Of a stretch of 52,661 nucleotides of DNA, positions 1-52,661 are shown one piece after another. Within the stretch, counting starts at the first letter, position 1. Every line of letters begins with the position of its first letter. Position numbers and translations under genes: made by a program. The DNA comes from a virus (Duplodnaviria > Caudoviricetes), in IMG/VR virus record IMGVR_UViG_3300009537_000014, positions 1 through 52,661 of that record. One strand, written 5' to 3'. Under the pieces are notes generated by a model. It made no database searches. It was not told the origin of the DNA and was given only the letters and a program-made list of their open reading frames with translations.

Positions 1-130
1 CACCTGGCATATATACGCTCCCGTAAGATCTTTTAGGTCTGTTAACAGGGAAAAAGGAGGTTTAGGCAAGCAAATCTACTATTAATTGCTACTACACCAA
101 CGCTCCAACGTTGGGTTAGTAATAAAATAC

Positions 131-159
131 TTGACAATTTCCGGTAAGTAGTGTATGGT
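131..159 (+). promoter_or_regulatory. sigma70-type promoter upstream of the late operon
   Basis: TTGACA (131-136), 17-nt spacer, TATGGT (154-159); AT-rich upstream. Confidence 0.65.
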
Positions 160-174
160 CATGTTTATCGAAAC

Positions 175-214
175 AAGGAATCCTTTGTAGGACCAAGGGA
201 TTCCTTTTCTTTTT
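175..214 (+). terminator. intrinsic terminator-like hairpin immediately before the terS start
   Basis: AAGGAATCCTTTG-TAGGAC-CAAGGGATTCCTT followed by TTCTTTTT, then ATG at 215. Confidence 0.65.
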
Positions 215-6667: not shown

Positions 6668-7567
6668 ATGGGTGTTGTTTCTAGTGAGAGCTTCGGCTAC
6701 CTATTAGACCCTGGGTTGCGGAAGATCTTCATGGACGAATACAACCTGCCTGACGCAAAGATGGATCTGCTTTACGGCGTGGAGAGTTCCTCCAAGGCTG
6801 TAGAGTATGATTATGCTTTGGGTGGGATAGGTGACCTTGAGGAGTTCACAGGTACCATCGGGTACACGGACTTTGATGGTCAATACAGGGTCTCCTATAC
6901 CCACAAGGAGTGGGTAAGGGGTATTAAGGTTGAGCGTAAACTTGTGGACGATGACCAGTATTCGGTCATTAACAAGCGTCCGCAAACGTTGGCTCTTTCC
7001 GCTAAGAGGACGAGGGAAAAACATGCAGCCTCTGTCTTCAACAGTGCGTTCAATACGAGCGTGTTCACTGGTGGAGACACTTATGCGTTGTGTGCCTCGG
7101 CTCATACGTGGAATGGGACATCAACGACTCAGTCGAACAGTGGCTCGTCAGCCCTTTCTAGCTCTGCTCTTGCTACGGCAAGGCTGGCTATCAGGGACTT
7201 TACTGATGACACTGATAACTTGTTGAATGCTCGTGGTGACTTGCTGCTTGTTCCGCCTGAGTTGGAACAGACGGCGTATGAAATCACGCAGTCGCAGTTG
7301 AAACCCGGTACTGCTGACAACGACAAGAACTTCATCAACTCCTTGAACTACAAGGTAGTTGTGTGGGATTACTTGTCGGACACCAACAACTGGTTCCTTA
7401 TCGATAGCAAGTACGCTAAGTTGTTCTTGAAGTGGTTCAACAGAATCCCTCAAGAGTTCAACAAGGATAAGGATTTTGACACGTACTTGGCCAAGTGGTC
7501 TACCTACGGGAGATACTCTTATGGGTTCTCCTCGTGGACTTGGTGCTATGGCAGCAATGTGACCTAA
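6668..7567 (+). CDS. major capsid protein (HK97 fold, Mu gpT-like)
   Basis: 299 aa; LVDDDQY, LLLVPPELEQTA, NNWFL and terminal RYSYGFSSW motifs; strong RBS GGAGG. Confidence 0.85.
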   Translation: MGVVSSESFGYLLDPGLRKIFMDEYNLPDAKMDLLYGVESSSKAVEYDYALGGIGDLEEFTGTIGYTDFDGQYRVSYTHKEWVRGIKVERKLVDDDQYSVINKRPQTLALSAKRTREKHAASVFNSAFNTSVFTGGDTYALCASAHTWNGTSTTQSNSGSSALSSSALATARLAIRDFTDDTDNLLNARGDLLLVPPELEQTAYEITQSQLKPGTADNDKNFINSLNYKVVVWDYLSDTNNWFLIDSKYAKLFLKWFNRIPQEFNKDKDFDTYLAKWSTYGRYSYGFSSWTWCYGSNVT

Positions 7568-7580
7568 AGTAAACATTGAA

Positions 7581-7624
7581 TACGTATACCTTCTGTGTTA
7601 TGTTTGACGCAGGAGGTATACGTA
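7581..7624 (+). promoter_or_regulatory. 20-bp hairpin sequestering the HNH RBS
   Basis: TACGTATACCTTCTGTGTTA / TGACGCAGGAGGTATACGTA; GGAGG lies in the 3' arm, ATG at 7628. Confidence 0.75.
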
Positions 7625-51868: not shown

Positions 51869-51897
51869 CGGTTAGCACCTCCGATATTAATATTAAT

Positions 51898-51934
51898 CAA
51901 AATATAGGGGGCTTATTCAGCCCCCTATACTTTT
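51898..51934. terminator. bidirectional intrinsic terminator
   Basis: TATAGGGGGCT-TATTC-AGCCCCCTATA with T-tracts on both strands; directly after the stop of the 78-aa gene. Confidence 0.75.
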
Positions 51935-52586
51935 ATTGCTGTTTCGCCTTACGGACATCGACCAATCGAACTCCGCACTCAAGGGCGAGATCGGCAACAG
52001 TGGAATCCCACTGATCAACCTTTTTGGTCTTGTCAAAGGTCGTCAAGGAATATTCGTCACCACTCTGTTTCTTGATTCCCCGAATCACAACAAGATTATC
52101 GAGGAGCGACGTCACACGAGCGAGGTGCTTTTCCAATTCCTCGACTCGGTCTTGCAGTTCATGTGCCATGGGGCACCTCCTTTGTTTGACCAAGGCTCGC
52201 AAGTGCCAGCAAATGCGAAAGCTCCGAGGGACGAGGACAAGCGAGTCTGCGAGACTTGCCGACAAAAAAGCGAGATCTAGAGCTTTTTTGGCGGGCGACA
52301 GCATTTGCGGGACACGCAGTCGAGCCCAAACAAAGGAGGGGACACATGGACACATGAGATGCAAGAACGAGGCGAGCTATTGAAAAGCACCGAAGACTCG
52401 TGTGACGGCGAGCCTCCTATCTTGTATCTCTATAAGGGGAATCATATAAGAGTGGTGACTATTCATTGAGATACTTAATGAGACCAAAAAGTATAAGTGG
52501 GATTCCTATACCGATCTCGTATAAGTGCGGAGCTATTGGATGATAGAGATTAGGCGAAACAGTATAAAGTATGGGGCTGAATGAGT
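51911..52586. repeat. about 680-nt imperfect inverted repeat (rod-like fold-back)
   Basis: More than 15 co-linear complementary blocks between 51911-52216 and 52301-52586, e.g. CCTCCTTTGTTTG 52176-52188 / CAAACAAAGGAGG 52327-52339. Confidence 0.9.
51933..52169 (-). CDS. 78-aa hypothetical protein embedded in the fold-back element
   Basis: RBS AAGGAGG then ATG at 52169; N-terminal coiled coil (LQDRVEELEKHLARV). Confidence 0.7.
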   Translation of the reverse strand: MAHELQDRVEELEKHLARVTSLLDNLVVIRGIKKQSGDEYSLTTFDKTKKVDQWDSTVADLALECGVRLVDVRKAKQQ

Positions 52587-52597
52587 CTCCTTATTGG

Positions 52598-52603
52598 ATT
52601 ATA
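52598..52603 (-). promoter_or_regulatory. candidate -10 box for the leftward transcript
   Basis: Minus-strand TATAAT in an AT-rich patch; no good -35. Confidence 0.4.
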
Positions 52604-52661
52604 TATTTATACTCTAAGCTCCCCACCGAGCCCACCTTCTGCTTCGTCGCGGACGTGCCCG

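What the first reader, a model, noticed from the sequence alone, without database searches (positions are those of the whole stretch)
52377..52566. Periodic TATA/CTAT spacers punctuate the antisense arm about every 14 nt
Seen: the unpaired spacers of the right arm are not random decay. TATA recurs at 52431, 52445, 52492, 52507, 52520 and 52563, and CTAT at 52377, 52417, 52459 and 52533. Several of the 4-nt TATA spacers face 6-7 nt of coding sequence (CAAGGG, CAACAGT, GATCAAC, GTTTCT) between perfect 9-11 bp helices. Inference: an array of repeated asymmetric internal loops under selection. They could be binding sites for a protein (perhaps the encoded 78-aa protein, giving autoregulation), guide-like pockets exposing target bases for cleavage or editing, or a way to keep helices under one turn to escape RNase III or dsRNA sensing.
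Basis: partly seen in the sequence, partly recalled or inferred. Interest (0 to 1): 0.85.

Follow-up and report, generated by a model that had tools for sequence, protein, structure and literature searches.

The report
Mirror-copy leader with TATA loops
The TATA spacers are real breaks in a long imperfect hairpin that a phage builds from its first early gene and a degraded mirror copy of it, but a related phage has the same hairpin without TATA, so the regular breaks seem to matter more than the letters.

Summary
Four clean 4-nt loops are all TATA, each opposite 6-7 coding nt and set between perfect 9-11-nt blocks. A neutral decay model gave four TATA loops in 0 of 1000 runs. The "every 14 nt" spacing holds only in two short runs; a global phase test is weak.

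The loops lie in a ~725-nt imperfect palindrome (51885-52611). It is made of the first early gene cassette (SD, orphan 78-aa ORF, terminator; minus strand) and a non-coding mirror copy upstream, about 50 nt from the end of a complete linear viral record.

A fold-back artefact is unlikely. One of the 9 related IMG/VR phage contigs (L011) has the same construction at the same position, inside its contig and around an unrelated 55-aa gene. Identity is again ~67%, substitutions are transversion-rich, the pattern is blocky and helices are at most 12 bp. L011 has no TATA loops.

The best reading is a cis fold-back leader interrupted about once per helical turn, with TATA as a lineage-specific filler. 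Sequence-specific binding and guide pockets have no support. No orthologue, read set or RNA data could be obtained.

The parts
51899..51933 (-). Intrinsic-terminator hairpin of the 78-aa cassette. It belongs to the left (coding) arm, and a degraded copy of it lies at 52566-52591 in the right arm.
   Evidence: Terminator-like site with 15 pairs and a T-rich tail; pairing to the right arm (I4).
51933..52169 (-). Orphan 78-aa ORF (stop codon included). It is the first gene of the leftward early block and the coding arm of the fold-back.
   Evidence: ORF and translation within the 143-aa frame. AGGAGG lies 7 nt before the ATG. In the 5.8-billion-protein search it found only itself. In the 1.84-billion representatives it found only repetitive giant proteins.
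52176..52188 (-). Shine-Dalgarno region of the 78-aa gene. It forms the longest perfect block (13 bp), pairing with 52327-52339.
52189..52326 (.). GC-rich centre of the palindrome (GC 0.57). It has an apical hairpin, 52263-52271 / 52282-52290, with a 10-nt loop. The left side carries about 36 nt that the right side lacks.
   Evidence: (I13).
52327..52608 (-). Non-coding right arm: a degraded mirror copy of SD + ORF + terminator. On the minus-strand transcript it would be a 5' leader antisense to the gene. It begins with the anti-SD block 52327-52339.
   Evidence: Block chain. About 0.65-0.74 identity throughout, with 10 transitions against 27 transversions. The frame matching the gene runs into a stop, so it is not a coding paralogue (ORF 52305..52469). 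Palindrome score 394 against a shuffle maximum of 54.
52445..52448 (.). TATA loop facing GTTTCT (52067-52072).
   Evidence: It stays a 4x6 internal loop in the MFE of both strands.
52492..52495 (.). TATA loop facing GATCAAC (52013-52019).
   Evidence: In the sense-RNA MFE 2 of its 4 nt pair.
52507..52510 (.). TATA loop facing CAACAGT (51995-52001).
52520..52523 (.). TATA loop facing CAAGGG (51980-51985).
52563..52565 (.). TAT loop (part of the TATA at 52563) facing 5 nt around the stop codon.
52367..52551 (.). Span that holds the larger, partly matching loops with the CTAT sites and the TATA at 52431. The loops are 52367-52381, 52408-52418, 52426-52435, 52460-52480 and 52533-52551.
52609..52661 (.). 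Unique GC-rich tail (GC 0.64) between the fold-back and the end of the record. It is probably next to the genome terminus.
   Evidence: No similarity to the left side (384 of 1000 shuffles score as well). GC. 53 of 80 related contigs end 326-994 nt upstream of TerL (my count of the table).

Best explanation
The TATA/CTAT spacers are the mismatch islands of a real imperfect palindrome of about 725 nt (51885-52611). One arm is the first early gene cassette on the minus strand: SD, 78-aa ORF and terminator. The other arm is a degraded, non-coding mirror copy of that whole cassette. It lies immediately upstream, about 50 nt from the right end of the linear genome.

On a minus-strand early transcript the mirror copy would be a 5' leader. 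It would zip onto the SD (13 perfect bp) and the whole ORF, giving a rod of 7-13-bp helices.

What is constrained is the interruption of the duplex about once per helical turn, not the letters TATA. The A/T-rich 4-nt fillers are this lineage's way of breaking the helix.

Inferred purpose: mask or time translation of the first early gene, in the manner of RBS-sequestering leaders. At the same time the RNA is kept below the helix length that RNase III prefers, and/or the DNA palindrome is kept from recombining or being cleaved.

Shown: the sequence anatomy, its non-randomness, and its recurrence in a second phage. Inferred: transcription of the leader, and any effect on translation, RNase III or DNA stability.
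For: (1) Anatomy. Perfect blocks of 13, 7, 7, 10, 11, 7, 9, 11, 11, 11, 9, 9, 11, 7 and 10 nt are separated by asymmetric loops. The mirror copy includes degraded copies of the SD, start codon and terminator.

(2) Not chance and not simple decay. Four TATA loops appeared in 0 of 1000 neutral simulations, and 11 or more blocks of at least 9 nt in 7 of 1000. The random-scatter probability is 0.0011. Substitutions are 10 transitions against 27 transversions.

(3) Recurrence. Early-end DNA is held for 9 IMG/VR relatives. One of them, L011, has a 518-nt fold-back at 7090-7607, scoring 236 against a shuffle maximum of 39. It starts 255 nt from the terS start, against at least 267 nt in the window. 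It lies inside its contig, between terS and the early genes. It surrounds an unrelated 55-aa ORF with its own SD and terminator. There is no DNA similarity to the window. Identity is 0.67, substitutions are 7 transitions against 24 transversions, and the non-coding arm is shorter and A-rich at unmatched sites. It also has an excess of blocks of at least 9 nt (P = 0.00175).

(4) Helix lengths. The sense-RNA MFE has helices of at most 13 bp in the window and at most 12 bp in L011. Both RNAs fold as rods (z = -17 and -13).

(5) Literature, from passages only. E. coli RNase III substrates typically span two helical turns, about 11 bp is the minimum for appreciable reactivity, and internal loops restrict or block cleavage (PMC1540722). 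T4 gene e and I-TevI are silenced on long transcripts by a 5' arm that sequesters the RBS (PMC3014915, section 29).

(6) The record is of high quality. About 95% of it is coding and ORFs of 2666 aa and 1282 aa are intact. TerL has both of its domains.
Against: There is only one sequence of each fold-back. No orthologue exists, so neither covariation nor loop conservation could be tested.

No reads or RNA data are available, so transcription of the leader is assumed. Only one weak sigma-70-like site lies on the minus strand of the arm (52568-52540), fewer than the 2.2 expected from shuffles. None was found in L011.

Eight of the 9 relatives lack a large fold-back, so it is dispensable.

This explanation does not account for four identical TATA loops. 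L011 is an analogue, so its lack of TATA does not exclude a TATA-specific role here.

On the plus strand the rod has helices of 19 and 14 bp. RNase III can use coaxially stacked short helices (PMC1540722), so short helices alone do not guarantee escape.

'Maximum block no longer than 13' is not significant by itself (P = 0.20 for the window and 0.79 for L011).
Confidence: 0.45

Rival explanations
1. Sequence-specific sites. The repeated UAUA / TATA(AG) loops are binding sites for a protein, perhaps the 78-aa product, or are pockets that expose the opposite bases. The motif itself would be under selection.
For: Four of the four clean 4-nt loops are TATA, and TATAAG occurs 4 times here out of 27 in 52.6 kb. 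Neutral decay with A/T bias never reproduces this (0 of 1000). Five of seven outer blocks begin with AG, so the repeated unit may be TATAAG. The ESM Atlas's own low-confidence model of the 78-aa protein has KH-like neighbours at TM 0.44-0.49. This is a lead only.
Against: The only other fold-back of this kind has no TATA loop and no repeated loop motif. Phase coherence is weak. The protein has no Pfam or PHROG family above threshold, no relatives and an AF2 pLDDT of 58.5 with only two helices. I saw no GXXG motif in its sequence (the motif is recalled KH knowledge). All Atlas TM scores are below 0.5. The CTAT sites are varied remnants inside larger loops.
Confidence: 0.12
2. Assembly or sequencing artefact. 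The last ~385 nt would be a noisy mirror re-reading of the contig end (a fold-back read or chimera), not phage DNA.
For: The arm lies within 55-380 nt of the end of the record. No independent copy of this sequence could be found. Earlier follow-ups of this scan judged some imperfect end palindromes to be long-read fold-backs (e1-791015, e1-3939120). Identical TATA fillers look unnatural.
Against: The mirror similarity stops at about 52608. It is followed by 53 nt of unrelated GC-rich sequence instead of running off the end. The differences are blocky and rich in transversions. By contrast, fold-back reads are described as near-perfect palindromes (PMC12870357, passages). The rest of the record shows no frameshift noise. 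L011 has the same architecture inside a contig, with normal genes on both sides. 53 of 80 related contigs end at this same junction, which points to a true genome end rather than a local accident (my count).
Confidence: 0.1
3. DNA-level role. The structure acts as DNA next to the genome terminus, for instance in packaging, termination, end protection or replication priming. The interruptions would keep perfect homology too short for recombination between the arms or for hairpin cleavage.
For: Both fold-backs lie about 255-267 nt from terS, at the junction where most related contigs end. Perfect Watson-Crick blocks are at most 13 nt in both. There are few G.U-type differences: 10 of 37 substitutions in the window and 7 of 31 in L011 are transitions. 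That suits a constraint on DNA identity as well as one on RNA.
Against: Arms of 67-70% identity will not extrude as a cruciform in duplex DNA (general knowledge, recalled). Eight of the 9 relatives share the same terminase and the same junction but lack the fold-back, so it is not part of the conserved packaging signal. The copy covers exactly an expression cassette from SD to terminator, which fits an RNA-level logic.
Confidence: 0.13
4. No function. An inverted duplication arose at a recombination-prone genome end and is decaying. Clustered multi-nucleotide indels and a deletion bias in the non-coding arm give the blocky look, and TA slippage gives TATA.
For: Only 2 of the 10 genomes compared carry the fold-back. 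The non-coding arm is the shorter one in the outer loops of both fold-backs. Unmatched non-coding bases are A/T-rich: 36 of 48 in the window and 38 of 53 in L011.
Against: Two independent fold-backs have almost the same identity (0.70 and 0.67). Both have the same transversion excess and the same excess of 9-13-nt blocks. No block exceeds 13 nt. TATA cannot be derived from the facing 6-7-mers by deletion alone. The independent-site neutral model fails. A multi-nucleotide-event model was not simulated.
Confidence: 0.15

Closest known systems
RBS-sequestering 5' leaders of phage T4 (gene e lysozyme, I-TevI, soc/49 type) and 'fold-back inhibition' of hok and IS10 mRNAs
   Same: An upstream segment of the same transcript pairs with the SD and start region and silences translation. 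The best block here is the 13-bp SD/anti-SD pair. T4 case: PMC3014915 section 29, passages. The hok and IS10 cases are recalled.
   Different: The known cases use a short hairpin of about 10-30 nt around the RBS. Here the leader mirrors the whole cassette, about 280 nt including ORF and terminator. No internal promoter that would give an unmasked transcript was found.
T7-type RNase III processing signals, and the RNase III reactivity rules
   Same: About one-turn helices are separated by asymmetric internal loops. Internal loops restrict cleavage to one strand or block it. About 11 bp is the minimum for reactivity and two turns are typical (PMC1540722, passages).
   Different: Those are single hairpins of about 20 bp with defined proximal and distal boxes. 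Here there are about 15 consecutive units in one rod. The boxes were not examined and cleavage is untested.
Rod-like self-complementary coding RNAs (hepatitis delta virus, Obelisks) and young plant MIRNA genes born by inverted duplication of their target (recalled, no call)
   Same: One arm codes. The other arm is its imperfect complement, with regular interruptions, and an inverted duplication of the target gene serves as a source of antisense.
   Different: This one is part of a 52.6-kb dsDNA tailed-phage genome with ordinary bacterial SD and terminator signals. It is not a replicon and not a eukaryotic small-RNA gene.
Fold-back (inverted-duplication) artefacts of long-read sequencing and MDA chimeras
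   Same: An inverted copy lies next to a contig end.
   Different: Those artefacts are near-perfect and run to the end of the read (PMC12870357, passages). This copy is 70% identical and blocky, stops 53 nt before the end, and has an internal counterpart in another phage.

Membership tests
RBS-sequestering fold-back leader (T4 gene e / I-TevI type) | A 5' segment of the same transcript pairs with the SD or start codon. | tested here: met
   In silico only. 52327-52339 pairs perfectly with 52176-52188 (13 bp), and 52345-52349 pairs with the start codon region. In L011 the SD is only partly paired.
RBS-sequestering fold-back leader (T4 gene e / I-TevI type) | A second promoter lies inside or after the 5' arm, so that short transcripts escape masking. 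| tested here: inconclusive
   The consensus scan finds one weak minus-strand site at 52568-52540 and none between the arm and the SD. It finds none in L011. Phage-specific promoters are not covered by the scan.
RBS-sequestering fold-back leader (T4 gene e / I-TevI type) | Translation is repressed on the long transcript. | not testable with these tools
   No RNA data; no run was listed.
RNase III processing signal (T7 R1.1 type) | Two stacked helices of about one turn each flank an asymmetric internal loop. | tested here: met
   Predicted structure only. Examples: 11 bp / 4x6 loop / 9 bp, and 11 bp / 2x5 loop / 11 bp.
RNase III processing signal (T7 R1.1 type) | Proximal and distal box base-pair determinants are present, and the site is actually cleaved. 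| not tested
   The boxes described in PMC1540722 were not scored, and cleavage needs an assay.
Repeated protein-binding sites (iteron or RNA operator array) | The same motif recurs at each site. | tested here: met
   TATA fills 4 of the 4 clean loops and TATAAG occurs 4 times. The CTAT sites are varied.
Repeated protein-binding sites (iteron or RNA operator array) | The sites keep a constant phase or spacing. | tested here: inconclusive
   Spacings range from 13 to 32 nt. In the Rayleigh test, random placements reach the observed value in 620 of 5000 (TATA) and 1348 of 5000 (TAT) trials.
Repeated protein-binding sites (iteron or RNA operator array) | The motif is conserved in relatives that keep the structure. 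| tested here: not met
   The L011 fold-back has no TATA loop and 1 TATA in its 200-nt non-coding arm. It is an analogue, because no orthologue exists.
Long-read fold-back assembly artefact | The mirror copy runs to the contig end and is near-perfect or randomly noisy. | tested here: not met
   The last 53 nt are unrelated to the left side. The pattern is blocky and transversion-rich.
Long-read fold-back assembly artefact | The copy is absent from independent reads or assemblies of the same genome. | not testable with these tools
   No run was listed.
KH-domain RNA binder (for the 78-aa protein) | A GXXG loop and a confident KH fold. | tested here: not met
   No GXXG in the sequence (the motif is recalled). 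Atlas TM scores are 0.44-0.49 on a model with pLDDT 0.55. The AF2 model has two helices and pLDDT 58.5. No Pfam KH hit.

The most novel reading that the evidence does not exclude
Some tailed phages carry, at the genome end, a 'self-antisense' first early gene. The whole cassette (SD, ORF, terminator) would be mirrored upstream as a built-in antisense leader, broken once per helical turn. The message would then be a rod that masks its own RBS, yet is neither an RNase III substrate nor a recombining DNA palindrome. The construction would have arisen at least twice around unrelated genes. In this lineage the breaks would also have been recruited as UAUA sites for a factor.
Probability: 0.25. Interest if true: 0.7.

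Novelty: new variant of a known kind. Interest (0 to 1): 0.5.

Why it matters
If real and functional, this is a gene-control design not described for phages in the papers I found (searches listed none). It would be a full-length, cis-encoded antisense copy of the first injected gene, with helix lengths tuned to about one turn.

It would give a natural test case for how long an RNA or DNA duplex a bacterium tolerates. It would also show how inverted duplications at genome ends become regulators.

For annotation, it shows that an imperfect palindrome at the end of a viral contig is not automatically an assembly artefact. For the finding as given, the practical message is narrower: the regular interruptions are the shared feature, and the TATA letters are so far private to one genome.

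Tried and rejected
Relatives of the element itself:
- The 78-aa protein found only itself among 5.8 billion proteins.
- Among 1.84 billion representatives it hit only repetitive giant proteins.
- It found nothing in viral contigs or metagenome contigs.
- Its neighbour genes found nothing by single-protein scans.
- blastn of the last 1.9 kb against phage records gave no match.
- Exact or gapped DNA patterns from the right arm and the tail found nothing in viral, metagenome or genome contigs.
- The L011 55-aa protein found only its own contig.
- A second MoxR-based scan returned the same 9 contigs.

Sequencing runs: none was listed, and no RNA holder was listed.

Rejected ideas:
- Hairpin telomere or protelomerase. 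The TelK_muzzle hit has E = 0.006, below the cut-off. The 40 largest ORFs include no protelomerase, protein-primed polymerase, integrase or transposase.
- Terminal repeat between the two contig ends: none.
- Known RNA family: none. The 3 Rfam matches have E of 1.2 or more and fall far below gathering scores.
- A cluster of promoters: not supported.
- TATA motifs pairing with each other to present the blocks as hairpin loops. The leader folded alone is not unusually structured (z = -1.1), and only 8 of 30 UAUA nucleotides pair with another UAUA.
- A coding paralogue in the right arm: the matching frame runs into a stop after 54 codons.
- DGR or retron: no reverse transcriptase among the Pfam hits.

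Other points:
- Fold search was not run, because the AF2 model is of low confidence.
- Other fold-backs: none elsewhere in the window, none in 8 of the 9 IMG/VR relatives (L004 has only a small one, score 64), none in the 21 other TerL-upstream regions, and none in 5 MAG loci.
- Supplements of the three papers were not opened. They could hold read-level detail on fold-back artefacts.
Full report
WHAT THE WINDOW IS. The window is a whole IMG/VR virus record of 52,661 nt. It is classed as linear and CheckV estimates it as 100% complete. It is a tailed phage with terS and TerL at the left end, and its TerL is only 29% identical to any deposited phage. Pfam hits on the 40 largest ORFs include portal, capsid, PD-(D/E)XK nuclease, AAA_24, ATP-dependent ligase, MoxR-type AAA and vWA. 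About 95% of the record is coding, with intact ORFs of 2666 aa and 1282 aa and a two-domain TerL. The consensus is therefore of good quality. From about 43 kb to 52.2 kb the genes run leftwards. The finding lies in the last 300 nt.

THE OBSERVATION. Two further CTAT sites overlap TATA sites. Chaining exact complementary blocks between the two sides of position ~52276 gives perfect blocks of 13, 7, 7, 10, 11, 7, 9, 11, 11, 11, 9, 9, 11, 7 and 10 nt. Four loops on the right arm are exactly TATA. They face 6, 7, 7 and 6 nt of the 78-aa ORF, as stated. The CTAT sites sit in larger loops of 11-21 nt that still contain 3-5-nt matches.

The segment holds 6 TATA against a genome average of 1.0 per 190 nt. 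The richest 190-nt stretch of the whole genome is here, with 9. Against dinucleotide shuffles of the segment itself the count alone is unremarkable (70 of 2000 shuffles reach 6). The strong signal is where the motif sits. I evolved a perfect mirror copy by independent substitutions and indels to the observed identity, drawing new bases from the observed A/T-rich composition. This gave four TATA loops in 0 of 1000 runs, 8 or more TATA in 0 of 1000, and 11 or more blocks of at least 9 nt in 7 of 1000.

The 'period of 14' is local. Loop spacings are 25, 16, 18, 19, 15, 32, 15, 13, 13 and 30 nt. Phase coherence over periods 8-25 nt is not significant for TATA (620 of 5000 random placements do as well) or for TAT (1348 of 5000). 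It reaches 44 of 5000 only for a combined motif that counts overlapping sites twice.

WHAT THE SPACERS BELONG TO. The region 51885-52611 is one imperfect palindrome. Its self-complement alignment scores 394 against a shuffle maximum of 54, with identity 0.70 (68% identity, E = 1.8e-36). The parts are:
- The left arm is a complete expression cassette on the minus strand: an AGGAGG SD, a 78-aa ORF (52169 to 51936) and a 15-pair intrinsic terminator.
- The right arm is a mirror copy of all three elements. It cannot code: the frame that matches the gene runs into a stop after 54 codons, and the loops differ in length by 2-3 nt.
- The centre (52189-52326) is GC-rich (0.57) and has an apical 9-bp hairpin.
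- The similarity stops at about 52608. The last 53 nt are GC-rich (0.64) and unrelated to the left side (384 of 1000 shuffles align as well).

Identity is flat at 0.65-0.74 along the arm. Substitutions are 10 transitions against 27 transversions. Unmatched right-arm bases are A/T in 36 of 48 cases, whereas the facing coding bases are evenly composed. No other large fold-back exists in the window. The two contig ends share no repeat.

IS IT AN ARTEFACT? This was my leading worry, for three reasons. The arm is next to a contig end. No sequencing run could be listed. Earlier follow-ups of this scan had judged some noisy end palindromes to be long-read fold-backs.

The evidence went the other way:
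- The mirror copy does not run to the end of the record.
- The differences are blocky and rich in transversions. Fold-back reads are described as near-perfect palindromes (PMC12870357, passages).
- The rest of the record is clean.

Most important, relatives could be reached through the conserved MoxR ATPase. It has 253 homologues, many on ~50-kb contigs. An alignment of them brought in 9 IMG/VR contigs. In 6 of these the contig ends 2.1-3.9 kb upstream of the ligase, just as in the window. In the other 3 (L003, L005, L011) the contig runs through a junction: terS and TerL on one strand, a short spacer, then early genes on the other strand. A TerL-based scan gave 80 loci. By my count of its table, 53 have the contig end 326-994 nt upstream of TerL (636 nt in the window), 10 start inside TerL and 17 extend further. 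So this phage family has a fixed genome end at this junction, and the window ends there for that reason.

A SECOND, INDEPENDENT FOLD-BACK. I scanned the early side of all 9 relatives for self-complementarity. L011 has a 518-nt imperfect palindrome at 7090-7607, scoring 236 against a shuffle maximum of 39, with identity 0.67. L004 has a small one (score 64). The other seven have nothing above their shuffles.

The L011 structure lies inside its contig. It starts 255 nt from the terS start codon; in the window the distance is at least 267 nt (214 + 53). Its coding arm is a different cassette: SD, a 55-aa ORF (7417..7584) and a terminator. The two proteins share no similarity. The two loci share no significant DNA similarity.

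The construction is nevertheless the same:
- The non-coding mirror copy lies upstream of the gene and includes a degraded terminator copy.
- Perfect blocks are 8, 5, 11, 10, 6, 7, 6, 7, 10, 6, 13, 12, 5 and 9 nt.
- Substitutions are 7 transitions against 24 transversions, and 27 of 53 unmatched non-coding bases are A.
- The non-coding arm is shorter (200 nt against 231 nt).
- Blocks of at least 9 nt are in excess over randomly scattered mismatches (P = 0.00175, against 0.0011 in the window).

The sense RNAs fold as rods (z = -17.1 in the window; z = -13.0 in L011). Their longest uninterrupted helices are 13 bp and 12 bp.

L011 has no TATA loop and one TATA in its non-coding arm. No further case was found in the other 21 TerL-upstream regions (L045 is the L011 contig) or in 5 MAG loci.

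HOW IT MOST LIKELY WORKS. The following are shown:
- A real DNA palindrome, built from the first early cassette and its degraded mirror copy.
- A non-random pattern of about one-turn perfect blocks separated by asymmetric loops.
- Recurrence of that pattern, without TATA, in a second phage.

The rest is inferred. The early leftward transcript probably starts at or outside the outer part of the arm. Only one weak sigma-70-like site lies there, at 52568-52540. The leader would then pair with the SD, which is the longest block at 13 bp, and with the ORF.

This resembles the T4 gene e and I-TevI leaders. There, long transcripts are translationally silent because a 5' arm sequesters the RBS (PMC3014915, section 29).

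[quoted passage not shown] Internal loops are known to restrict or uncouple cleavage (PMC1540722). The same interruptions would also keep perfect DNA homology between the arms short. The data cannot separate the RNA-level and DNA-level readings. On the non-sense strand the RNA has helices of 19 and 14 bp, which slightly favours the sense transcript as the relevant molecule.

WHAT REMAINS UNEXPLAINED. Four identical TATA loops, with AG starting 5 of the 7 outer blocks, are not produced by my neutral model. They are also not required by the 'helix-breaking' explanation. They may be a mutational quirk, such as A/T-biased replacement or TA slippage. They may instead be a lineage-specific recruitment of the loops as sites for a factor.

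The encoded 78-aa protein offers no help:
- No family above threshold and no relatives.
- An AF2 model of two helices at pLDDT 58.5.
- KH-like structural neighbours only at TM below 0.5, on a model with pLDDT 0.55.
- No GXXG motif.

The idea that the self-complementary TATA motifs pair with one another to display the blocks in hairpin loops found no support (z = -1.1).

VERDICT.
- The periodicity is overstated.
- The interpretation 'array of asymmetric internal loops under selection' is partly supported.
- 'TATA as a conserved binding site' is not supported by the only comparable structure.
- The artefact reading is unlikely (about 0.1).

The same mirror-copy leader occurs twice, around unrelated first early genes, at the same genome end in one phage family. 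I rate it as a new variant of known fold-back control, with interest 0.5. The rating is limited by there being two instances, no orthologues, no reads and no RNA evidence. This scan had not noted this sequence on other DNA.

Noticed in passing
L011:7090-7607 (IMG/VR contig of 17,845 nt): A second fold-back of the same design. A degraded mirror copy of an SD + 55-aa ORF + terminator cassette lies upstream of that cassette, 255 nt from terS and inside the contig.
   Followed up: yes
window 1-214 and 52609-52661; loci L012-L091: 53 of 80 related contigs end 326-994 nt upstream of TerL, and 6 of 9 end 2.1-3.9 kb upstream of the ligase. The family therefore seems to have a fixed genome terminus in the terS / early-gene spacer, with GC-rich sequence next to it. 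The terminus type (cos or short repeat) was not determined.
   Followed up: partly
L092-L097 (GTDB MAG contigs): Five of the seven MoxR-bearing relatives in the genome collection sit in MAGs labelled Candidatus Omnitrophota. This is either a hint at the host group or a binning effect.
   Followed up: no
L004:53-107: In another relative, a perfect 15-bp hairpin sits immediately before the SD of the first early gene, at the contig end. A further SD/anti-SD-like inverted pair lies at 164-178 / 251-265.
   Followed up: no
window 52263-52290: The apex of the palindrome is a 9-bp A/T-tract hairpin. Its 10-nt loop contains overlapping AGATCT and TCTAGA hexamers. The left side of the centre carries about 36 nt that are absent on the right.
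   Followed up: no
window 175-206: A hairpin lies just upstream of terS (13-nt arms, 92% complementary). Its GGAATCC / GGGATTCC core also occurs in both arms of the fold-back (52002-52012 / 52496-52506). This may be chance.
   Followed up: no
window 51936-52169 (-): The 78-aa protein has a sub-threshold Pfam hit to the protelomerase muzzle domain (E = 0.006, 17 bits against a cut-off of 27). It also has KH/NusA-like structural neighbours at TM 0.44-0.49. Both are too weak to use.
   Followed up: partly
   Followed up: partly
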